A stretch of 64,000 nucleotides of DNA, from NCBI RefSeq assembly GCF_054482595.1, contig NZ_JBTHVH010000004.1; one strand, written 5' to 3'. Source of the DNA: a plasmid. A model generated the notes under the pieces. That model searched no databases, had not been told where the DNA came from, and worked only from the letters and a program-made list of their open reading frames with translations. Shown here one piece after another: positions 20,673 to 61,695 of this stretch (its first letter is position 1; the number at the start of each line of letters is the position of its first letter). A program made the translations under genes and the position numbers.

Positions 20673-21914
20673 GTGAATCTACAATCCGGACAAAACATAC
20701 CGCTTCAGCAATCTGCGATCAGGCTGAATCTTCAGTACCCTGCCAAATCCGGCTTTAAAGGCGAACCCGATACCTGCCTCTTCCTGCTTAATGCTCAGGG
20801 AAAGGTAACCGGCGATTCTGACTTTATCTTTTATAATAATCTGTCTTCTCCTGAAGGGGCAGTAAAGCTCGTTACCGGTTCTCAGCAGTCCAGCATTGAG
20901 ATAGCACTGGATCGTGTTCCGGCGAACGTCAGTAAGATTGCGATCACCGTTGTCATTGATGGTGAAGATACTATCAGTGGGCTCAGTTTATTGAGCATTC
21001 AGGCTCCTGGTATCGCTGATTTTCAGGCTGAGACTCAGGGCCGCAGTGAGAAAGCAATCATCCTGGGTGAAGTATATCGGCACAATGGCGCCTGGAAGCT
21101 TCGTGCGCTCGGGCAGGGTTTCAACGGTGGTCTTGAGCCTCTGGCCATTAGCTTTGGCGTTGATGTCGCACAGCCAGCTCCGCAGCCAGCAAAGCCTGCT
21201 CGTATCAGTCTGGAAAAGAAACTTGAAACCAGATCTCCGCGCCTCGTAAGCCTCGCTAAAAAAGCCTCGGTCAGTCTCACTAAAAATAAACTGGACACCC
21301 TTGAGGCAGCGGTTGCATTTGTACTTGACGCATCCGGCTCAATGAGTGGCCAGTTCAGTAAGGGCAACGTTCAGTCTGTGCTGGACCGCATCGCCGTTCT
21401 TGCCGCCCAGTTCGACGACGACGGTGAAATGGATGTCTGGGGATTTGGAGAGAAGCACAAGAAGTATCCAAACGTCACACTGGACAACCTGGACACATAT
21501 ATTCAGTCCATTCGCGGGTCTGGAAAGCGTTCAGCCTGGGAGAACCTGCCGGGACTTGGTGGGACAAACAATGAGCCCCCTGTGATGGAAGAAATTGTCG
21601 ACTACTTTAAGGACTCGAAAATCCCGGTATATGTTGTATTTATTACCGATGGCGGGATCAGCAAGACCCGGGCGATTAAAGATGCAATCCGGCGTTCTGC
21701 CAACTACCCCATCTTCTGGAAGTTTGTCGGCCTGGGTGGTTCAAGCTACGGTATCCTCAAAAATCTGGATGACTTTACTGACCGCCGGGTTGATAACACC
21801 CACTTCTTTGCCATGGATGATTTCGGTTCGATCAGCGATGAAAAGTTATATGATAATTTACTGGAAGAATTCAGACCGTGGATCGATGAAACAAAAAGGT
21901 TAGGCATCCTGTAA
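20673..21914 (+). CDS. terF: TerF: TerD-like N-terminal domain fused to a C-terminal vWA domain
   Basis: GTG start at 20673 with AGGAGAG RBS; C-terminal half has MIDAS '[12 protein letters not shown]'. Confidence 0.8.
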
Positions 21915-22476: not shown

Positions 22477-22758
22477 CTATCGGTCTAAAAGCTGATCCAT
22501 TAATAATTCTTCGTAAAGCCCAGAGGTATCGGGCTTTATTACAATATCCGTTATTTCGAAGCGTTCAAGTACAAATTGCAGATATTCCGGAGTAACGTAG
22601 TAGGGATCAGGTTCAGCCAGATTAGTATAGAGTGGGTCTTCTGCTGCATTAATGTCATAATCAATGCACATATGAAACCACTGCAAAGGTGGATCCCAGC
22701 CTAACATCACCTGAACAATTCCCTGATTGCTTTTCACCTCATACCAGTGCTGGCTCAT
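22477..22758 (-). CDS. Hypothetical protein (93 aa)
   Basis: ORF with no recognisable motif; last of three co-oriented minus-strand small genes. Confidence 0.4.
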   Translation of the reverse strand: MSQHWYEVKSNQGIVQVMLGWDPPLQWFHMCIDYDINAAEDPLYTNLAEPDPYYVTPEYLQFVLERFEITDIVIKPDTSGLYEELLMDQLLDR

Positions 22759-53502: not shown

Positions 53503-53832
53503 GAATACAAGGACAATGCCGGTACCGCCTGATTACTTCTGGCGTCGTCTACAATGTTACTCCAGGCATATGCTGCGTCGTCCGGGGTTTGTTTTGGATC
53601 TATGTCCAATGTCGGCCAGACGTGGCCCTGATGATTCTTGCCCTTTGTACAGGAAGTGATTAAGTGTACTGAGCGTTCAGAGAACATTATCTTCCTTACA
53701 TACCCATAGAACAGCTTTCTAAGAACGGTGGGCTCGGCTGAAAATTACAAATCAGCCCCTTTCACGGCATCATTTTGATTCTTCGCGTCTGCCCCAGTAA
53801 GATGACCGGTTTTCTGCATGACAGTGTTATTC

Positions 53833-54126
53833 CTAACAAACGCAACACAAAACCACGCCAGCCAGAGCAAATTTTTTCATTTGCTGCGTAAAGAGCCTAT
53901 TGTTTTCTCTTTTAAGCTTCGCCCACTCGTTACAGAGGGTAACATCATCAAGCGCTGTTATATGCTTCGCCTCACCTTCGACGATAACGGTATGGATACC
54001 GTATGCTGTAAATCTCATACTATTTTCCAGAACCCAGTTGCGGTATTCGTCGAGTCCACCTTCGGAACCGGTAGCTCTGCGCCACATTTCAATTTGCTTG
54101 TGTGATGGGTCAAGTGTACTTGTCAT
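53833..54126 (-). CDS. Hypothetical protein (97 aa)
   Basis: ORF only. Confidence 0.3.
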   Translation of the reverse strand: MTSTLDPSHKQIEMWRRATGSEGGLDEYRNWVLENSMRFTAYGIHTVIVEGEAKHITALDDVTLCNEWAKLKRENNRLFTQQMKKFALAGVVLCCVC

Positions 54127-54394
54127 TGAAGCCTCGTCTCAGCGATAACGCTTGAAATAGCCCGCTTTGGTCATCATGAAATTAGCCATCTGACTGGCGA
54201 TTTGATTGTATCTTACTCATAGTGCCCTACCTATAGGTTAAAAAGGGGCATTTTCGCTTTATAGCGTGTTCAGCAGCATCAATCCTCCCAAGAAAGGCTG
54301 GCTTATTAAGCCGGTCCATCATTTTCTGTATATCTCTCATCAATTTTTATATCCGCCCTGGAGTGCACCGTTCAAGCACACCGATTAGGCAGAT

Positions 54395-54680
54395 AGTCAC
54401 TAGTTAACTCTTTACTAGTGACTAAATTCCATTGATATACGTGACAACGTCACGTCATGAAAGCTTTTAAATGCCTATTTTTCATACAATGGGATTTAAT
54501 TAGGAGTAAATCCCATAGGCTTACATAAGGATGACAATTAAAAGCGTTAAATATCAACCAGATAGAATGATTACCCCCAATTAATGGGCTCATCACATTA
54601 TTTCACTGGCTGGGGTTATTGCTGGCATATCTGAAAGTGCTAATATGTTAGTCATTAGTAATTAGTAAAGCCTTTACTAA
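54395..54680. promoter_or_regulatory. Palindrome-rich intergenic region (candidate operator / partition-type sites)
   Basis: Palindromes 'AGTCACTAGT..ACTAGTGACT' (about 54395..54424), 'ACGTGACAACGTCACGT' (about 54439..54455), 'TTAGTAAAGCCTTTACTAA' (about 54662..54680), plus repeated 'TAGTG(C/T)CCTACCT' at about 54217 and 54709. Confidence 0.45.
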
Positions 54681-54768
54681 ACGCGTTTCTACGTAAATTC
54701 TATAGGTTTTATAGTGTCCTACCTTTGCTCAAATCAAAATGTTCTGACATACCAAAATGGAGTGTAAA

Positions 54769-55587
54769 ATGACTCAAAACCAGGGTTCTGAGCCAGTACC
54801 GGCGAGCCGGACAGGGCAGCTCATCAGCGCCCGGGATATGGCCATGCAGAAATTCGAAGAAGGGATGCGGTTAATCTCGGAAGCGTCGGAACTGTGCGGT
54901 CTCTCTCTCTTCACCAGCAGAATTATGCAGCCCAACGCATTTGGTCTTCCGTCGTCACTGGATCGCACCATCGAGGAGGGGCGTAAGGAAATTGACCGTA
55001 AAACGTGGAAAAGGCTCTTTGAAGAAACAGGTATGGACCGGTACTGGAACCATAAGCAAAAAGAAGCCTTTAACGAATCCCTTCGTACGGATCCGCCCGT
55101 CGCTTCCCTGGAGATTGTTAAGGGAACATTACAGCATGCACTGGCTAACAGACGAGACACCCTTGCAGAAGGTTTCGTTGATGTTCTCAACAAGCTTGAC
55201 CGAAGTTTCAAAAGCAATGCCAGGCAATATACAATGCCAAAAAAGCTTGTTCTTCGGGGGATTTTTCCTGGTGTGAACGTGCTGAGGTACAACGGTTTCT
55301 CGCAGGACAATCACTTTTGTTTACGCGACTTTGAGAATATTGTATGCATCTGTTCTGATACTCCAACACCTGCAACCGGCGGTGGGCTGAGTATGGTCGA
55401 CAGGCTGACGGCCATGAGAAATACAGAATTCACAGGCGAGGTCAGTGATGAGAATGGCTGGCGGTGTCGCCTGTTTGAGAATGGAAACGTTCATATTTGC
55501 ATCGACAGTATCTCGCTTCTGAATGCTCTGAACGATCTTATCAGCATATATTTTGCAAACCAGCTTCCGGCCGCAGGAAAAAAATGA
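54769..55587 (+). CDS. Hypothetical protein (about 272 aa)
   Basis: ATG at 54769 with GGAGTG RBS; its stop overlaps the next start (ATGA), indicating translational coupling. Confidence 0.5.
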   Translation: MTQNQGSEPVPASRTGQLISARDMAMQKFEEGMRLISEASELCGLSLFTSRIMQPNAFGLPSSLDRTIEEGRKEIDRKTWKRLFEETGMDRYWNHKQKEAFNESLRTDPPVASLEIVKGTLQHALANRRDTLAEGFVDVLNKLDRSFKSNARQYTMPKKLVLRGIFPGVNVLRYNGFSQDNHFCLRDFENIVCICSDTPTPATGGGLSMVDRLTAMRNTEFTGEVSDENGWRCRLFENGNVHICIDSISLLNALNDLISIYFANQLPAAGKK

Positions 55588-56789
55588 TGATTGAAAATGA
55601 TAAAGAAAAAAGCCTGAACGATGCTACCCCGCCAGAGGTGCAGAATGACATCCGCAGCGAATCCACTGAAAAATCAAAGGAAATGGGTCGTTCAAGGTAC
55701 TCATCTATCGCGATGATCGATTACTTCAATGCAATCGAACGTCTGTGCAAAGAGAAAGAAATTAACCCGGAAAATATCGATCTGAGCTTCAAAGTTCACT
55801 GGCTCAGAAACGCTGTTGGCGGCTCGTTTGCAAGGTCACAGGAGATGTTCGCGGAGTACCAGAAGTATGTTAAAGAGGTTCCTGAAGAGGCCCGTTACCT
55901 GGATATACCCGATGAGGTAAAGGTTGCACTCGGCGATATTATCTCGTACATCACCTGGCACTACCGTAGAAGCTATACCGCAATACAGAATGATAGTGTT
56001 AAAAAAGCTGAAGCACGTAGCATGCAGCTGGAGGAGGAGGTAACGCAGCTGTTACAGCGGCTTGAGCAAAGCGCTACCGATATGGATGAGCTGAAACTTG
56101 AGAATCAGGCACTACAGGGTCGATTAGAGATCCGGGACAGTACCGTCAAGGAGTTAGAAACAAGGCTGAATGTTGCCGAAGCAGAACTCGAAACCTGCCA
56201 TCACCAGTTAGATAGCACACGGCATGAATTGAGCCTCGCACAGCAGTCAAATGACTCACTCTCCCAGCAACTGGCTGAACGTAAAACAGAGATCGCTGGT
56301 CACCTTGAATATCAAAAAAAGCTGAACGAAGAGATCAACACGCAGCGTTCTGATAACGCCGGTCTTTCCAGACAATGCGACCAGTTAAGTCAGACTGTGT
56401 CAGATACAAAGGCAGAGAGGGACAGGTTTGAACAGGAATTGATTGCTGCACAGAACCTTTGTACTGAGCTGAAAAGTGCACTGTCCGGGAAAGAGGGTGA
56501 CCTGGTGGCGGTGAATGCCGAGCTTACTGAACTCCATAAACTAAACGAGTCGCTGAGCGCCGACCTGAATAAAGTAACTTTGGTCAGCCAGGGCTATGAA
56601 GCGGAAGTGGCTGAACAAAGCAATGAACTCAAAACGCTCCAGGCCAAAGTAATGAAGCTGGAAGCTACCCTGGAGGCGGAGAAAACAATCTCAGAATCCC
56701 TAAAAGGCACCATTGATACATTAACTGGTGCAATGGCAGGGGGAGGTACTGGAAAGTCAAAACAGCCGCGTAGCAGAAAAACATCATGA
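55584..56789 (+). CDS. KfrA-like DNA-binding protein with long coiled-coil C-terminal region
   Basis: N-terminal 'HWLRNAVGGSFARSQEMFAEYQ' resembles the KfrA N-domain GGGSF motif; the C-terminal about 250 aa is heptad-like and Glu/Leu/Gln-rich. Confidence 0.5.
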   Translation: MMIENDKEKSLNDATPPEVQNDIRSESTEKSKEMGRSRYSSIAMIDYFNAIERLCKEKEINPENIDLSFKVHWLRNAVGGSFARSQEMFAEYQKYVKEVPEEARYLDIPDEVKVALGDIISYITWHYRRSYTAIQNDSVKKAEARSMQLEEEVTQLLQRLEQSATDMDELKLENQALQGRLEIRDSTVKELETRLNVAEAELETCHHQLDSTRHELSLAQQSNDSLSQQLAERKTEIAGHLEYQKKLNEEINTQRSDNAGLSRQCDQLSQTVSDTKAERDRFEQELIAAQNLCTELKSALSGKEGDLVAVNAELTELHKLNESLSADLNKVTLVSQGYEAEVAEQSNELKTLQAKVMKLEATLEAEKTISESLKGTIDTLTGAMAGGGTGKSKQPRSRKTS

Positions 56790-56852: not shown

Positions 56853-57056
56853 TCAGCCCGTCCGCAGGAGTTTTCGTCCTTCAGTCAACAAATGCACTAC
56901 CTTTTTTGAGTCTCCACTTTCCAGAGCAGAAAACACGTTACCGATTCTACCAACAGCTTGTATCTGAGTGATAACCCCAGTCTTGTAATCATCTAGGATC
57001 CCTGACAGGAAAGCGTTCAGTTTTGTCTGTTCGCTTAGCGAAAGCATGTAGGACAT
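56853..57056 (-). CDS. Hypothetical small protein (67 aa)
   Basis: ORF at the 3' end of the minus-strand methyltransferase operon. Confidence 0.3.
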   Translation of the reverse strand: MSYMLSLSEQTKLNAFLSGILDDYKTGVITQIQAVGRIGNVFSALESGDSKKVVHLLTEGRKLLRTG

Positions 57057-57068
57057 TTTTTCTCCATT

Positions 57069-58388
57069 TTAAGCAGGTGTGTCAGTTGAAAGAGGTTTGC
57101 GTGATTCTGGAAAATGAGGCAGCACCATAGTTTCAGATGCTGTGGTCGCATCCCAGTGCCACCATCCATAAGGCCCATATTCACGGTTGTAATAATCTTT
57201 TTTGAGTTGCTTTCGGGCCAGATAAGCAGGAGTGGCCATACCAAATACTTCCATCGGGAACGGCTTATCGCTTTTTGTGTCGAGCAGGTAGAAGTCAGGG
57301 AACACCTCACTAATACTCGCATCATAACGCATGGGCTTAACGTACTGCCGGTGCTCTGCATCCAGCTTTTCTGCAACAACCGCCTCATAGGAGGAGTCCA
57401 GAGGTATCCAGTTCTCGCTAACGTGCATCAGCACAATTTGATGAGCTCTTACAGAAGGGCCTCTGCCGGTTACCGCAGCTGGTGACGTCAACGCAAAGAC
57501 AACTATTTTCGCCCCGGATTTCCATGCTGCGTACTCCGATGAAAATCGTTTCTTTACGCTATCCCAATGGACTTCTGAATTGAAAAAAATCAGCGGTAGC
57601 CCCCCAAAATTCCGCAGGGGTAAAAATTTAAGTGGCTTCTCATGCTTTTCAGCATCGTAGCGAGGTAAAACTGACAGGAGCATGAGACGTTTATCACTCA
57701 TCGCCTGTGATGAAAGACGCTGAATTTGCGACTGAGCGACAGGTTGTTTCGGGTCAGGTACACCAATGAATAAATGGTCACCTATGCAGGCTCTGCCGGT
57801 ACGAATTTGTTTAGCGGTTTCAAGCAGACGATACCGTACCAGTGAATCGTTACGTTTCCCTGCCATTTTCGGGTACCAGACATTCAGACCAGACTCTGTC
57901 CACAAAAGACTAAGCAAGCCCAGGAGGGTCATTGAGGCCTGACCTCCTTCTGGTCGCTGAACATGGGGCAGGGGAGGCACTTCTGATTTTTCAGGAGGAT
58001 CTTTCTCTGTCATACCGATACCGAGCCTTACAGCCATATCACCTTCGGTTGTAATCCGGACCACACCACTCGCATATCCTTTCAGGCCGGTATGCCGGGC
58101 ATCAAGGGAGAAGAATACACAGGAAGGATCATGCTCAATGCCCGTGTTAGCGGCTTTGACGAGAATAAAGGCATCACCGTTCGGTAAAGCACGAACATAA
58201 AGTCGCTTTTCTCCTTTTCCACGACATCCGCAGGTGATGACTGATTTTTGACCTGAGGTGTGGTGTGCCTTTTTAAGAGCCGACTGCCACCCTTTAGCAA
58301 ACTCATCCTGCGTTTGAAAGTCAGGTGAATACCTTTTGACGTTTGGATCGTCGTCGTAAGCAATCATCACTGCGAATTTTTGGCTCAT
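57069..58388 (-). CDS. Hypothetical protein (439 aa; possibly DUF1173-like)
   Basis: Long ORF co-oriented with and downstream of the C5-methyltransferase; contains 'CGCRG' and 'PDFYLLDTK' segments; family uncertain. Confidence 0.5.
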   Translation of the reverse strand: MSQKFAVMIAYDDDPNVKRYSPDFQTQDEFAKGWQSALKKAHHTSGQKSVITCGCRGKGEKRLYVRALPNGDAFILVKAANTGIEHDPSCVFFSLDARHTGLKGYASGVVRITTEGDMAVRLGIGMTEKDPPEKSEVPPLPHVQRPEGGQASMTLLGLLSLLWTESGLNVWYPKMAGKRNDSLVRYRLLETAKQIRTGRACIGDHLFIGVPDPKQPVAQSQIQRLSSQAMSDKRLMLLSVLPRYDAEKHEKPLKFLPLRNFGGLPLIFFNSEVHWDSVKKRFSSEYAAWKSGAKIVVFALTSPAAVTGRGPSVRAHQIVLMHVSENWIPLDSSYEAVVAEKLDAEHRQYVKPMRYDASISEVFPDFYLLDTKSDKPFPMEVFGMATPAYLARKQLKKDYYNREYGPYGWWHWDATTASETMVLPHFPESRKPLSTDTPA

Positions 58389-58410
58389 AGTAGTCTCCTA
58401 AACAGGAAGT

Positions 58411-58578
58411 TTAATATCCCAACCAGAGCAACACTTCCTGAGCGTCATACTGTTCCTTTACGCCCATGTCGCTAAAGAATTCTTCGAAATCTGTTTCGGG
58501 AACGCAATGCCTGGACAGTTCTTGTAATGCTCGTTCTTTAGATACCGTCTCACCTTCAGCTGATTCGAAATACGTCAT
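58411..58578 (-). CDS. Hypothetical small acidic protein (55 aa)
   Basis: Not in the ORF track (<60 aa); 'MTYFESAEGETVSKERALQELSRHCVPETDFEEFFSDMGVKEQYDAQEVLLWLGY'; sits between the methyltransferase and the 439-aa gene. Confidence 0.25.
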   Translation of the reverse strand: MTYFESAEGETVSKERALQELSRHCVPETDFEEFFSDMGVKEQYDAQEVLLWLGY

Positions 58579-58638
58579 GGTTGACCTCTGACATTATTAC
58601 AACAATCTTAAGCATTTAAATTGATGAAGGAGCTCAGG

Positions 58639-60108
58639 TCAGCTGACTTCGTCGTAAAACTGCCGCAAGCGCTGGGAGGCTGCAAATTCAATTCGTGACT
58701 TCAGCAGTTTGGCGACGGCCGCAAAGACATCAACGACCACGGAGTTCCCAAACTGTCTGTAAGCCTGTGTATTGGACACAGGGATACGGAAAACACTTTC
58801 CCCGGGTTTATCGAAGCCCATTAGCCTGCTGCATTCACGTGGCGTTAGCATGCGTGGCCGACGGTCCATGTTGTATGTGTTATGGAAATCAGTTTCTCCC
58901 AGTTCATGAGACCAGCCCCGATCAATAAGAATTTCAGATCCGTCTTTCATATAGCGGCTTGAGAGGGTTATGGTGACACTATTAACATTGGAAGGATCTA
59001 CTAGTCCAAAACCAAAACCATTGCCTTTTGCCGCATGTTTCTTTGCATAGTTGTATAAGTACTCCCAGAGTTTAGGGGAGAGGATGTATTTACTATCTAC
59101 GCTCGGATCCAGTAAATCTGAGAGAGAAGGGCGCTTGTCCGGATAAAAGTCTTTAATGTCTCTCAGAGTAAAACCGTCTTTCAGACGTAGGTCGCGGCGA
59201 AAACCAATAAGGACGATACGTTCACGGTGCTGGGGTCGGAAATGACGGCCATCGATGACTTTAGGATCATCCGCGCCCGTGCTTTCGCTGTTTGCGACGT
59301 CGTAGCCAAGCTCATCGAGCGTTTTCATGATGATGTTAAAGGTATTACCCTTATCGTGACTCTTCAGATTTTTTACGTTTTCCAGAACAAAAATTGCAGG
59401 TTGTTTTGCCCGGATGATCCTGGCCACATCAAAGAAGAGCGTACCCTGAGTGTCGCACTCGAAACCGTGTTTGCGACCCATAGAGTTCTTTTTACTGACA
59501 CCGGCGATGCTGAATGGCTGGCATGGAAATCCCGCAAGAAGAACATCATGATCCGGGATAGAGGCATCGATAAATTTGTATGCCTCGTCATCAGTAACCT
59601 CGGGCCGGTTGCTAAGAGTGATGTCACGGATGTCTGAATTGAAGCGGTGCTCGTTCTCATCGCAATACCAGTTCGCCCGGTAAGTACGGCTGGAATAAGT
59701 ATTCCATTCGCTCGTGAAAAGACATTTACCACCGATGGCATCAAATCCGCTTCGCAGTCCACCTATCCCTGCAAACAGATCGATAAAGCTAAAGTGCCTG
59801 TCCTCATAATCAGCAGGTCGTGAAGGTATTAAAGTCTGTAGATAGCGTCCATCTGCGATACTCAGCTCACAATGCTCAGGTATGCATGTAACCTGACGTT
59901 TAAGGGATGCACGGGACCAATTACTGCCATTTTCATCATTTAATACCTGAGCCAGATATTTCAGGTCATAAATGGTCGAAGCTGTTAACAAAGTTTTGTG
60001 GATCAGAGATGGTGTTTTATCCACATCATTCAGGTCTGTCTCAAGATCATGAGTGTAACGTTTCATCCAAACTCTCTCAGGAATAATATCTTTGAGATAG
60101 ATTAACAC
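58639..60108 (-). CDS. DNA (cytosine-5)-methyltransferase
   Basis: C5-MTase motifs '[15 protein letters not shown]' (I), '[11 protein letters not shown]' (IV), 'VLENVKNL' (VI); start is either GTG at 60108 or ATG at 60066. Confidence 0.8.
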
Positions 60109-60277
60109 GCTTAATTTGGATTATTTTTTGGTTCAGGTTCTAAATTTATTGTGATTATTCTGCCTTTAAGTTGCAAAAAGATTGGTTTTAAGCCCGCCCA
60201 TGAAATAATGACTTGTTAAAATACTGCCTGTAAATAGGCTTGTGGATACATGTCTGTACTCAACAAATCAAGGTGAA

Positions 60278-60796
60278 ATGATGTTTTTTTTAACAAAGTT
60301 ACTTTTGCCCATCATGATTGTTGTATTCCCAGTGGCGTCCTGGGGGAACTCAACAACTTTTGAGGCAAAGGTGGTTAAGATTGTTGACGGTGACACCATA
60401 ACTGCGTTGGATGCTCAAAACACAACCATCAAAATACGGATGTATGGTATAGACGCTCCTGAATCTAAACAGGCTTTTGGCCAAAAAGCAAAACAGGCCT
60501 TAACCACAGCTATAGCAACTAAAATCGTTACCGTGATAGACCATGGTACGGATATCTATGGCCGTATGTTAGGTACCATCTGGTTAGATGGATATGATAT
60601 CAATGCCTCTATGGTGGACAGTGGATATGCGTGGGTTTATCGGTTCGAAGATAACGCCATTGTCCCTGGCTATATCAAATATGAATCCGCAGCACAAAAG
60701 GAGGCAAAAGGGTTATGGGCAGACACCAACCCTGTCCCACCATGGCAGTGGAGACAGGCAAACGAAAAGCCCAGAAAGGTGAAAGAGAAGAAATAA
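60278..60796 (+). CDS. Thermonuclease (staphylococcal-nuclease-like) family protein with signal peptide
   Basis: N-terminal hydrophobic signal; 'VVKIVDGDTI...IRMYGIDAPES' SNase-like core; ATG at 60278 with AAGGTGA RBS. Confidence 0.7.
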   Translation: MMFFLTKLLLPIMIVVFPVASWGNSTTFEAKVVKIVDGDTITALDAQNTTIKIRMYGIDAPESKQAFGQKAKQALTTAIATKIVTVIDHGTDIYGRMLGTIWLDGYDINASMVDSGYAWVYRFEDNAIVPGYIKYESAAQKEAKGLWADTNPVPPWQWRQANEKPRKVKEKK

Positions 60797-60798
60797 CC

Positions 60799-61695
60799 AT
60801 GATGAAAGAGCCTCATCCGTTACTTCAGTTGGTACTAAACGATTCCGGTCGTCTAACCATGCCTGTTTATTATAGAGATCAACAGTATTGCCCGACTTGC
60901 CTTACAAAGGTGTTGAAGAGTGAGGATGGAAGTTTGGCGCACCTCGGGGAAATAAATCAAAATACATGTAGACCTTCTATTTCAGTAGTTGTGACAAAAG
61001 CAATTATTGAAATGTTATGTGACGGGGAAAAAATATATGTAAATCCAATACGACACCGAGGCCGGGTGCTGGCACCCTCAGTAATTTTTTCTCCCGACAC
61101 TCACACTTTCAAACCGTTTATAAATACAGACTATCAGCCTGTGGGAGCAAACTGGAAAAGTGAAAAGGGATATAAACTCGGTCTGTTTTATCTCAAAGAT
61201 CGAGCCAACTCTATCAATAAAGAGGAATTTGATTTCATTGCCGTTATAGACCCTGAGGCAATGCAGAAAGAATTTATTTCGGCCTGGTCTGAGGTTGATG
61301 AAAAAAATCCATTGGAAACGCTGAAGCAGATCTTACGATCTAAAAACAACTCTTCTTTATGGGTAAAATGGCCTGGCAAAATTGAGCATGCGCAAAAAGG
61401 AAATTACAACGAAAATTACTGGTTCGATTATCAATCTGATAATCAGGAAGTGAACTGTACGGTCTCTGTTGTAGGTATCGAAGGTAACAGTTCCGGTGAG
61501 ACAATTTATAGATTGCAAACTTTGCTAAAGCGTAAGCTCAATGAATATCAACTGGTTCGGTCTTTAGGGACTATTATGCTTCTTGATAATACCGGGAATA
61601 TGATTCCATCAAACCATCCTTATTTTGAAGTCATCTCAAAAGCATGTATAAATGGAGTGCGTGACTTTGTTCGTCAAAACCCGTGGGTAGTCTGA
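60799..61695 (+). CDS. Hypothetical protein (298 aa) with 'CPTC' motif
   Basis: ATG at 60799, 3 bp after the upstream stop; AT-rich codon usage. Confidence 0.45.
   Translation: MMKEPHPLLQLVLNDSGRLTMPVYYRDQQYCPTCLTKVLKSEDGSLAHLGEINQNTCRPSISVVVTKAIIEMLCDGEKIYVNPIRHRGRVLAPSVIFSPDTHTFKPFINTDYQPVGANWKSEKGYKLGLFYLKDRANSINKEEFDFIAVIDPEAMQKEFISAWSEVDEKNPLETLKQILRSKNNSSLWVKWPGKIEHAQKGNYNENYWFDYQSDNQEVNCTVSVVGIEGNSSGETIYRLQTLLKRKLNEYQLVRSLGTIMLLDNTGNMIPSNHPYFEVISKACINGVRDFVRQNPWVV

What the first reader, a model, noticed from the sequence alone, without database searches (positions are those of the whole stretch)
54130..54756. Palindrome-dense intergenic region upstream of the KfrA-like operon
At least three distinct perfect palindromes (10-bp arms AGTCACTAGT; ACGTGAC-AA-GTCACGT; TTAGTAAAG-C-CTTTACTAA) and a repeated 'TAGTG(C/T)CCTACCT' motif are packed into about 600 bp of non-coding DNA. 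Such density is typical of plasmid operator, partition-site or transfer-origin regions.
Basis: seen in the sequence. Interest (0 to 1): 0.45.

Follow-up and report, generated by a model that had tools for sequence, protein, structure and literature searches.

The report
Conserved operator cluster of IncHI plasmids
The palindromes are real and mark a conserved but uncharacterised control region in front of a two-gene operon (DUF4942 plus a KfrA-like coiled-coil protein) on IncHI resistance plasmids; it is most likely a set of repressor/activator binding sites, and it is not a transfer origin.

Summary
The window is an IncHI2 plasmid, 99.8% identical to pEGY1-MCR-1. The finding is the 642-bp gap (54127-54768) between a leftward 126-aa gene and a rightward operon of DUF4942 plus a 401-aa coiled-coil protein.

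Three have arms of at least 9 bp, against 0.044 expected from shuffles. None recurs elsewhere in the 229-kb plasmid.

The decisive result is comparative. Eight other lineages of the same operon (IncHI1 and metagenomic relatives, proteins down to 30% identical) keep the same elements in the same order: A, B (GTGAC-N3-GTCAC), TACNAT plus C, an extended -10, D, and the block CTACGTrAATTC. The rest of the gap has diverged: 0.27-0.41 identity outside the palindromes, mostly 0.53-0.93 inside.

A and D share one 7-N5-7 palindrome with extra heptads, much like the RA3 KfrA operator. The coiled-coil protein gives weak KfrA_N hits.

Best reading: a multi-operator promoter region, with the KfrA-like protein repressing its own operon at A and D. 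The proteins that bind B and C are unknown. oriT and both partition loci lie elsewhere. No binding or promoter activity has been shown.

The parts
54127..54768 (.). Whole intergenic region between divergent genes of the IncHI2 backbone (38% G+C)
   Evidence: It is unannotated in the plasmid records checked.
54394..54424 (.). Site A: perfect inverted repeat with 11-bp arms and a 9-bp spacer. It is built of heptads: TAGTCAC, CTAGTTA, spacer actct, TTACTAG, then GTGACTA. The core 7-N5-7 palindrome is 54400-54418.
   Evidence: Orthologous A sites occur in IncHI1 (TTAGTCATGCCTTTACTAA) and L026 (TTAGTAAggaagTTACTAA). Identity to other lineages is 0.58-0.68 (0.32 in L028), against 0.27-0.41 outside the palindromes.
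54439..54455 (.). Site B: ACGTGAC-AAC-GTCACGT. The core is GTGAC-N3-GTCAC at 54441-54453.
   Evidence: The core half-sites are identical in all nine lineages while the spacer varies. It occurs once in the 229-kb plasmid.
54485..54490 (+). TACAAT, a -10-like hexamer abutting site C. It is a candidate upstream promoter, or it may be part of the C site.
   Evidence: TACNAT (AACCAT and CACTAT in the two most distant lineages) is present at this position in all nine lineages. Promoter activity is not shown.
54489..54516 (.).
   Evidence: Both arms are unchanged in IncHI1 (L009, L010); in L033 one arm base differs (TAAATCCCAC). It is degenerate in L024, L026 and L031. L028 has a different palindrome at the same place. 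The distance from B keeps its helical phase.
54619..54646 (+). Candidate promoter of the DUF4942 operon: -35-like TTGCTG (54619-54624), a 16-bp spacer including TG at 54638-54639, and -10 TAATAT (54641-54646).
   Evidence: My own position-weight scan found it at orthologous positions in IncHI2 and IncHI1. TGnTAnnnT lies 23-25 bp upstream of D in six lineages. The strict consensus scan found nothing here. This is a prediction only.
54648..54680 (.). Site D: three direct heptads (TTAGTCA, TTAGTAA, TTAGTAA), spacer agcct, then the inverted heptad TTACTAA. The core palindrome is 54662-54680.
   Evidence: The 7-N5-7 geometry is kept in all lineages; in L028 the half-site is changed on both sides to CTCATAA / TTATGAA.
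54689..54700 (+). Block E: CTACGTAAATTC, a conserved leader element exactly 27 bp after the start of D.
   Evidence: The D-to-E distance is 27 bp in all five lineages where both were found.
54219..54232 (+). Left copy of the 14-bp direct repeat ATAGTGCCCTACCT, followed by CTATAGGTT
   Evidence: It is specific to IncHI2, and P is about 0.04 by shuffling.
54711..54724 (+). Right copy of the repeat, ATAGTGTCCTACCT, in the leader of the DUF4942 gene. It contains CCTAC (54718-54722), the 5-bp target duplicated by a Tn7-like element in R478-like IncHI2 plasmids.
54769..55587 (+). DUF4942 gene (272 aa), first gene of the operon. A GGAG ribosome-binding site lies at 54759-54762.
   Evidence: Pfam PF13708, E = 3e-26. 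The annotation in pEGY1 agrees. GGA upstream of the start codon is kept in the other lineages.
55584..56789 (+). KfrA-like gene (401 aa): a helical N-terminal domain, a long coiled coil and a basic C-terminal tail
53745..54126 (-). Leftward neighbour: a 126-aa hypothetical protein in pEGY1, frameshifted in this window

Best explanation
The region is the cis-regulatory control region of a conserved IncHI backbone operon: DUF4942, then a KfrA-like coiled-coil DNA-binding protein.

It holds at least three classes of double-stranded protein-binding sites, arranged around one or two rightward promoters.

1. Sites A and D are two copies, 262 bp apart, of one operator type: a 7-N5-7 palindrome yTAGTwA-N5-TTACTAr flanked by extra direct heptads.
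2. D lies about +9 to +27 from the start site predicted for an extended -10 promoter (TGcTAATAT). There, a bound repressor would block initiation or early elongation.
3. The most likely binder of A and D is the operon's own KfrA-like protein. That would give negative autoregulation of the kind shown for KfrA of RA3 and the IncP-1 plasmids, and possibly an added plasmid-maintenance role.
4. Sites B and C bind one or two further, unidentified proteins that interact on one face of the helix. They act either on a second promoter (TACNAT, overlapping C) or together with the A/D repressor.

What is shown: the sites exist, are statistically unusual, are unique in the plasmid, are conserved in sequence, order and partly in spacing across nine lineages, and travel with the operon.

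What is inferred: the promoters, the identity of every binding protein, and repression itself.
For: 1. Enrichment: three inverted repeats with arms of at least 9 bp against 0.044 expected.
2. Conservation: in nine lineages whose KfrA-like proteins are 30-100% identical, the four palindromes (defined from the window alone) are mostly 0.53-0.93 identical to IncHI2; the exceptions are A and D in L028, at 0.32 and 0.47. The rest of the gap is 0.27-0.41 identical (Mann-Whitney P = 2e-16).
3. Order and spacing: the order A-B-C-promoter-D-E is constant. The extended -10 lies 23-25 bp before D, and E lies 27 bp after the start of D.
4. Link to the operon: the sites stay with the operon while the leftward genes differ (126-aa gene, DUF6884, FRG, IS110, others). 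DUF4942 genes of IncL/M and IncI plasmids, which have no KfrA-like partner, lack the sites.
5. Dyad symmetry is kept in 88.9% of cells, against 29-45% when the partner columns are slid. Sequence is conserved as well as pairing, and B never varies.
6. The B-to-C distance ranges from 44.5 to 77.5 bp but keeps its helical phase (R = 0.79, P = 0.006).
7. KfrA likeness: KfrA_N is the only Pfam hit of the N-terminal domain (E = 0.003; 2 of 8 relatives at E <= 1e-3). The protein also has a long coiled coil and a basic C-terminal tail. Its invariant R75, G79, G80 and Y92 line up, by my reading, with R33, G38/G39 and W51, which are essential in RA3 KfrA (PMC7783346).
8. The RA3 KfrA operator is likewise made of short repeats in both orientations around the -10, and is unique in its plasmid (PMC7783346).
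9. In L028 the D half-sites change on both sides (TAGTAA to TCATAA), and the helix after the GG turn of its KfrA-like protein also differs (GGRIHNATTAF against GGSFxRAQEMF).
Against: - No binding, transcription-start or expression data exist for this locus in anything I could search.
- The strict sigma-70 consensus scan finds no promoter here. My promoter calls rest on a permissive scan plus conservation.
- The KfrA_N match is below normal significance, and the fold search of the N-terminal model found nothing (best E = 1.6).
- The L028 covariation is a single event, and site C changes in the same lineage, so it cannot assign A/D specifically to the KfrA-like protein.
- Conserved dyad symmetry with some two-sided changes also fits hairpins in single-stranded DNA or RNA.
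- The A-to-D spacing is close to whole helical turns in only three lineages (my reading of the coordinates), which is not significant.
Confidence: 0.6

Rival explanations
1. Centromere-like or plasmid-stability site. Arrays A and D, perhaps with B and C, would be where the KfrA-like filament-forming protein holds the plasmid for positioning or segregation; gene regulation would be secondary.
For: RA3 KfrA needs its specific DNA binding for stable maintenance and interacts with ParA and ParB (PMC7783346). The heptad arrays in both orientations resemble small centromeres. The protein has a long coiled coil and a basic tail.
Against: IncHI2 already carries parAB and parM modules at 107-114 kb. 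D sits just after a conserved -10 element, the position of an operator. In R478-like plasmids a Tn7-like element separates the sites from the operon, yet both are retained; this is uninformative either way. No stability data exist.
Confidence: 0.2
2. Structured nucleic acid instead of protein-binding duplex: hairpins in the mRNA leader or a small RNA, or single-stranded DNA hairpins acting on entry into a recipient (single-strand promoter or priming site).
For: The region folds better than its shuffles as single-stranded DNA on both strands (z = -3.5 and -4.2). Dyad symmetry is conserved, with seven two-sided changes. DUF4942 genes sit in leading regions next to ardA and ssb in IncI and IncL/M plasmids. 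D and E fall within the predicted leader.
Against: Arm sequences, and part of the C loop, are conserved and not merely complementary; B never varies. Several changes in C are one-sided and break pairing (L024, L026, L031). A has the same sequence as D but lies upstream of both candidate promoters. There is no long hairpin that would rebuild a -35/-10 pair, only short local stems. No Rfam family matches. The stretch between C and D varies in both sequence and length, unlike an sRNA gene.
Confidence: 0.08
3. Origin of transfer, or another nick or origin site.
Against: mobI, the MobH relaxase and the coupling protein lie at 21-28 kb of pEGY1, about 60 kb from this locus. In R27 and SXT, oriT lies directly next to mobI (PMC10838148). 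The region has no DnaA box, no IHF consensus and no GATC. The replication genes repHI2 and repB are at 75 and 90 kb.
Confidence: 0.02
4. Attachment site for a mobile element. The conserved D/E stretch would be kept, or used, as the target sequence read by the target selector of the Tn7-like pco/sil transposon. The 14-bp repeats would be traces of insertion or recombination.
For: In R478-like IncHI2 plasmids a Tn7-like element is inserted after 54722 with a 5-bp duplication, CCTAC. Its tnsA-proximal end faces D and E, which lie 20-60 bp away. The intergenic region is a repeated insertion target: IS3, Tn3 and other breakpoints.
Against: A to E are conserved in lineages with no such transposon and travel with the operon, so their primary function predates the insertion. 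Tn7/pco/sil also uses other sites, such as yhiN-yhiM (PMC8417528). This could only be a secondary use of the sequence.
Confidence: 0.08

Closest known systems
KfrA autoregulated promoter-operator of plasmid RA3 (IncU) and the IncP-1 plasmids RK2 and R751
   Same: An alpha-helical protein with an N-terminal helix-turn-helix carrying a GG(S) turn, a long coiled coil and a basic C-terminus. The operator is made of several short repeats in direct and inverted orientation placed around the -10 of the protein's own promoter, and the motif is unique in the plasmid (PMC7783346).
   Different: Here the repeats are heptads in a 7-N5-7 arrangement, not 9-mers. There are two separated copies (A and D, 262 bp apart). 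The KfrA-like gene is second in its operon, behind DUF4942. There is no kfrB or kfrC and no korA/korB/incC neighbourhood. Two further conserved palindromes (B and C) are present. The KfrA_N match is only E = 0.003. Binding is untested.
Omega repressor heptad operators of plasmid pSM19035 (compared from memory)
   Same: Arrays of contiguous 7-bp repeats in direct and inverted orientation near promoters, read cooperatively by a small dimeric repressor that also serves partition.
   Different: A different heptad sequence (WATCACW) and a ribbon-helix-helix protein. No such protein is evident at this locus.
Multi-operator looping systems such as lac, gal and deo (textbook knowledge)
   Same: Two copies of one operator a few hundred bp apart, one of them overlapping or just downstream of the promoter.
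   Different: Looping is conjecture here. The A-to-D distance is near a whole number of turns in only three lineages, which is not significant.
Single-strand promoters and leading-region control elements of conjugative plasmids (compared from memory)
   Same: DUF4942 genes lie in leading regions of IncI and IncL/M plasmids, and the region is rich in hairpins.
   Different: There is no long imperfect hairpin, the locus is far from oriT, and sequence is conserved along with pairing.

Membership tests
KfrA-type protein (for the 401-aa gene product) | N-terminal KfrA_N (PF11740) helix-turn-helix DNA-binding domain | tested here: inconclusive
   KfrA_N is the only Pfam hit of the N-terminal domain, but it is weak: E = 0.0031 for the window protein, 2 of 8 relatives at E <= 1e-3 and 4 of 8 at E <= 0.1. 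It was not among the hits shown for the full-length scan. The AF2 model is helical (pLDDT 72.7), but Foldseek against the PDB found nothing (best E = 1.6).
KfrA-type protein (for the 401-aa gene product) | Long alpha-helical coiled-coil tail | tested here: met
   SMC, crescentin and lamin-type coiled-coil matches over residues 136-380. The model shows one continuous helix from residue 110.
KfrA-type protein (for the 401-aa gene product) | Positively charged C-terminal tip (non-specific DNA binding in RA3 KfrA, PMC7783346) | tested here: met
   The C-terminus reads ...GGGTGKSKQPRSRKTS. Similar basic tails occur in the relatives. Only the sequence feature was checked, not the activity.
KfrA-type protein (for the 401-aa gene product) | Represses its own promoter through a repeat operator overlapping that promoter | not testable with these tools
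   Operator-like heptad arrays lie next to a conserved -10 element.
KfrA-type protein (for the 401-aa gene product) | Genomic context: a kfrA(-kfrB-kfrC) unit in the stability or central control region, beside korA/incC/korB | tested here: not met
   The gene follows DUF4942 and is flanked by DUF1173, a 55-aa gene, dcm and a thermonuclease gene. parAB lies about 80 kb away.
Origin of transfer (MOBH type) | Lies next to mobI and the relaxase gene | tested here: not met
   mobI is at 21,384 and mobH at 22,613 in pEGY1; this region is at 190,460-191,101. PMC10838148 places oriT next to mobI in R27 and SXT.
Partition centromere (parS or parC type) | Repeat array adjacent to parAB or parMR genes | tested here: not met
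   parA and parB are at 107-109.6 kb, with a 249-bp tandem array upstream. parM is at 112.7 kb. No par gene lies near the finding.
Global plasmid regulon operator (KorA/KorB style) | The same operator recurs at several promoters of the replicon | tested here: not met
   Each of A/D, B, C and E occurs only here in the 228,947-bp pEGY1. Degenerate matches elsewhere are at the frequency seen in shuffles.
Known RNA family | Match to an Rfam covariance model | tested here: not met
   Nothing approaches a gathering score. The best match is a hammerhead ribozyme model at 22 bits against a threshold of 52, and it lies inside the DUF4942 gene.

The most novel reading that the evidence does not exclude
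The five-element region (A, B, C, D, E) is the control switch of an undescribed plasmid module: DUF4942, the KfrA-like protein, DUF1173, a 55-aa protein, Dcm and a nuclease, usually next to an H-NS paralogue. In this reading the KfrA-like protein loops A to D. Site B, which never varies, is read either by DUF4942 acting as a new DNA-binding fold or by a conserved host factor. The module would be switched on briefly after entry into a new host, as an establishment or anti-defence function, and then shut off.
Probability: 0.15. Interest if true: 0.6.

Novelty: new variant of a known kind. Interest (0 to 1): 0.36.

Why it matters
IncHI1 and IncHI2 plasmids are major carriers of mcr-1, mcr-9, ESBL and heavy-metal resistance genes, yet most of their backbone is unannotated.

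This work defines a testable control region with base-level coordinates for five conserved elements, together with the conserved operon it travels with. It gives clear targets for footprinting, reporter fusions and deletion studies of plasmid stability, establishment or fitness cost.

It also shows that in the R478-like lineage a Tn7-like metal-resistance transposon has cut this control region away from its operon. That is a natural experiment on what the regulation is for.

If the KfrA-like assignment holds, KfrA-type autoregulators extend to MOBH/IncHI plasmids, in a new operon context.

Tried and rejected
- Motifs elsewhere: I searched the 64-kb window and the rebuilt 229-kb pEGY1 for further copies of every motif and found none. 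The only look-alikes of the 14-bp repeat are 2-mismatch matches; most lie at non-conserved positions of the 249-bp tandem array upstream of parA, so I treat them as chance.
- Genome scan: scanning 100,044 species genomes for site C returned only chance hits in unrelated AT-rich genomes.
- RNA and promoter scans: the Rfam scan was negative and the strict promoter scan found nothing.
- Origin features: no DnaA box, IHF consensus or GATC.
- Protein family libraries: NCBIfam and PHROGs gave no DNA-binding family for any neighbouring protein. A sequence search of the PDB was negative for both operon proteins.
- Fold searches of both AF2 models were negative, so the function of DUF4942 remains unknown.
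- The word-indexed protein search returned only fragments; the exhaustive search was needed to find the family.
- I could not obtain an RA3 record to make a direct KfrA profile comparison.
- Literature searches for the motifs and for kfrA in IncHI plasmids found nothing on this locus. R27 microarray data mention only R0166, without detail.
- A-to-D helical phasing holds in three lineages only, so I do not claim it.

Full report
**Identity of the window.** The stretch 53800-55100 is 99.8% identical to more than 500 large conjugative plasmids of E. coli, Salmonella, Enterobacter and Klebsiella. The reference I used, pEGY1-MCR-1 (NZ_CP023143.1), is typed IncHI2A, MOBH, MPF_F. To the left of about 53650 the window carries a resistance region ending in a Tn3-family transposase. 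From there rightwards it is IncHI2 backbone.

**The locus.** The finding is the 642-bp gap 54127-54768. On its left is a leftward 126-aa hypothetical gene, which is frameshifted in this window. On its right is a rightward operon of two genes:
- a DUF4942 gene at 54769-55587 (Pfam E = 3e-26);
- an overlapping 401-aa gene at 55584-56789.

**The observation.** A scan for perfect inverted repeats finds four:

| Site | Coordinates | Arms / spacer |
|---|---|---|
| A | 54394-54424 | 11 bp / 9 bp |
| D | 54662-54680 | 9 bp / 1 bp |

Dinucleotide shuffles give 0.044 repeats with arms of at least 9 bp, and three are present. These three are a quarter of all such repeats in the 64-kb window.

The 14-bp direct repeat ATAGTG(C/T)CCTACCT exists at 54219 and 54711. 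It is only marginally unusual (P about 0.04) and it is specific to IncHI2.

A and D are related to each other. Both are built from heptads of the form TAGTNAN around a 7-N5-7 core.

**Uniqueness.** I rebuilt the whole 228,947-bp pEGY1 from six fetched pieces and searched it. Each site occurs only here. Relaxed patterns match elsewhere only as often as in shuffled sequence. The 9-nt repeat of the RA3 KfrA operator is also found nowhere else in RA3 (PMC7783346).

**What the region is not.**
- *Not oriT.* mobI, the MobH relaxase and the coupling protein are at 21-28 kb of pEGY1, and in R27 and SXT the mobI gene lies directly next to oriT (PMC10838148). This locus is at 190.5 kb.
- *Not a primary centromere or replication origin.* parAB and parM are at 107-114 kb, and the two replication genes at 75 and 90 kb. 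There are no DnaA boxes, IHF sites or GATC sites.
- *Not a known RNA.* No Rfam family matches.

**Comparative evidence.** This is the main result.

IncHI1 plasmids (R27 type; L009 and L010) have the same gene order: hns paralogue, small genes, a gap of about 620 bp, DUF4942 (63-64% identical at protein level), a 406-aa coiled-coil gene, then DUF1173, a small gene and dcm on the other strand.

An exhaustive search of 1.84 billion representative proteins with the N-terminal domain of the 401-aa protein found only 15 relatives. I fetched the contigs of six full-length relatives. Every one has DUF4942 immediately upstream. Most have DUF1173, the 55-aa gene and dcm downstream, and several have an H-NS gene to the left.

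In all nine lineages the upstream gap keeps the same series of elements:
1. an A-type palindrome;
2. GTGAC-N3-GTCAC (B), with both half-sites identical in every lineage;
3. TACNAT abutting a C palindrome. C is exact or one base off in IncHI2, IncHI1 and L033, degenerate in three lineages, replaced by a different palindrome at the same spot in L028, and unrecognisable in L030;
4. an extended -10-like TGnTAnnnT;
5. 23-25 bp later, the D palindrome with extra upstream heptads;
6. exactly 27 bp after the start of D, the block CTACGTrAATTC (E).

The four palindromes were defined from the window alone. They are mostly 0.53-0.93 identical to the orthologous columns of the other lineages; the exceptions are A and D in L028, at 0.32 and 0.47. 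The remaining columns are 0.27-0.41 identical (P = 2e-16).

The genes to the left of the gap differ between lineages: the 126-aa gene, DUF6884, an FRG-domain gene, IS110 and others. The sites therefore belong with the rightward operon. Stand-alone DUF4942 genes in IncL/M and IncI plasmids have no KfrA-like partner and lack all of these sites.

**Duplex binding sites or hairpins?** Dyad symmetry is kept in 88.9% of pair cells, against 29-45% for slid controls, with seven two-sided changes. Taken alone, that fits either a hairpin or a symmetric protein site. Four points favour duplex recognition:
- The arm sequences themselves are conserved, and B never varies.
- Several changes in C are one-sided and break pairing.
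- A repeats the sequence of D although it lies upstream of both candidate promoters.
- The single-strand folds show only short local stems.

The B-to-C centre distance ranges from 44.5 to 77.5 bp yet stays within 0.05-0.38 of a helical turn (R = 0.79, P = 0.006, treating seven lineages as independent). That pattern is expected when proteins, or a protein and RNA polymerase, contact each other on one face of the helix.

**Promoters.** The strict consensus scan finds none. A permissive weight-matrix scan places TTGCTG-16-TGcTAATAT at 54619-54646, and an equivalent element at the orthologous IncHI1 position. The TGnTA...T element is present in most lineages. With a start site near 54653, D would cover about +9 to +27, which is an operator position. 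The invariant TACNAT next to C may be a second promoter, or it may be part of the C site. Both promoters are predictions.

**The KfrA-like protein.** The full-length protein hits only coiled-coil families. Its N-terminal domain, scanned together with seven relatives, hits only KfrA_N: E = 0.003 for the window protein, and 2 of 8 members at E <= 1e-3. The AF2 model (pLDDT 72.7) has a disordered first 36 residues, four to five short helices and then one long helix. Foldseek found no significant neighbour.

The family's invariant R75, G79, G80 and Y92 can be lined up with R33, G38/G39 and W51, which are essential in the RA3 KfrA helix-turn-helix. The basic C-terminal tail also matches the RA3 description (PMC7783346). 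That alignment is my own reading and was not computed.

RA3 KfrA represses its own promoter through five 9-nt repeats, three in one orientation and two in the other, placed around the -10 (PMC7783346). Here D has three direct heptads and one inverted heptad just after the -10.

In L028, D keeps the 7-N5-7 geometry but both half-sites change from TAGTAA to TCATAA. The segment after the GG turn of its KfrA-like protein is also different. This is a single covariation event, consistent with the KfrA-like protein reading A and D but not proof of it.

**DUF4942.** The AF2 model is fairly confident (pLDDT 79, pTM 0.71) but has no PDB neighbour. No paper assigns the family a function. Its occurrence next to ardA, ssb and nikA in other plasmids hints at an early, establishment-type role. 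That is conjecture.

**Verdict.** The region is best explained as a conserved multi-operator control region of the DUF4942/KfrA-like operon. A and D are probably the KfrA-like protein's own operator. B and C are read by unidentified partners.

This is a new variant of a known kind: plasmid autoregulatory operators of the KfrA type. Membership of the KfrA family is plausible but not established. Of five defining features, two are met, one is inconclusive, one is not met and one is untestable here. Every functional statement remains inference until binding and transcript mapping are done.

Noticed in passing
window 54718-54722; L003 6590-6980; L035 5700-6200: In R478-like (about 91% identical) IncHI2 plasmids a Tn7-like element is inserted in the leader of the DUF4942 gene, just after 54722, with a 5-bp duplication (CCTAC). 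In L035 its cargo side carries pcoS, rcnA/rcnR and mcr-9. The insertion separates sites A-E from the operon, which stays intact at 97-99% identity. The tnsA-proximal end faces sites D and E, 20-60 bp away.
   Followed up: partly
window 53745-54126 (- strand): The leftward 126-aa gene is frameshifted in this window relative to pEGY1: an extra AG near 53893 and a missing C near 53792. It may be a pseudogene or carry sequencing errors.
   Followed up: partly
L009 4001-4813 (IncHI1 plasmid NZ_CP139338): The DUF4942 gene of this IncHI1 plasmid has an in-frame stop and is not annotated. The same gene is intact in L010.
   Followed up: partly
window 54216-54370; L004, L011: The left half of the intergenic region is a recurrent insertion target. 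An IS3-family element sits at about 54223 (L004) and Tn3 at about 54304 (L011). Further homology breaks occur at about 54328 and 54368 in other plasmids.
   Followed up: partly
L008 3868-6958 (pEGY1 103.9-107.0 kb): 12.6 copies of a 249-bp tandem repeat fill the unannotated 4.3 kb between trhC and parA. This may be the partition or incompatibility repeat region of the IncHI Par1 module.
   Followed up: no
window 56853-60108 (- strand), 60242-61695 (+ strand); L026, L028, L033: A gene set travels with the operon across lineages: a 67-aa gene, DUF1173, a 55-aa acidic protein and a Dcm-type cytosine methyltransferase on the opposite strand, then a thermonuclease gene. It looks like a conserved module of unknown function.
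   Followed up: partly
window 54398-54408: Site A contains ACTAGTTAACT, which from memory equals the core of the E. coli trp operator (ACTAGTTAACTAGT). The second CTAG half-site is missing at the TrpR spacing, so this is probably coincidence.
   Followed up: no
L030 2855-3157: In the most distant lineage a 100-aa ORF sits between element E and the DUF4942 gene. The control region there may drive a three-gene operon.
   Followed up: no
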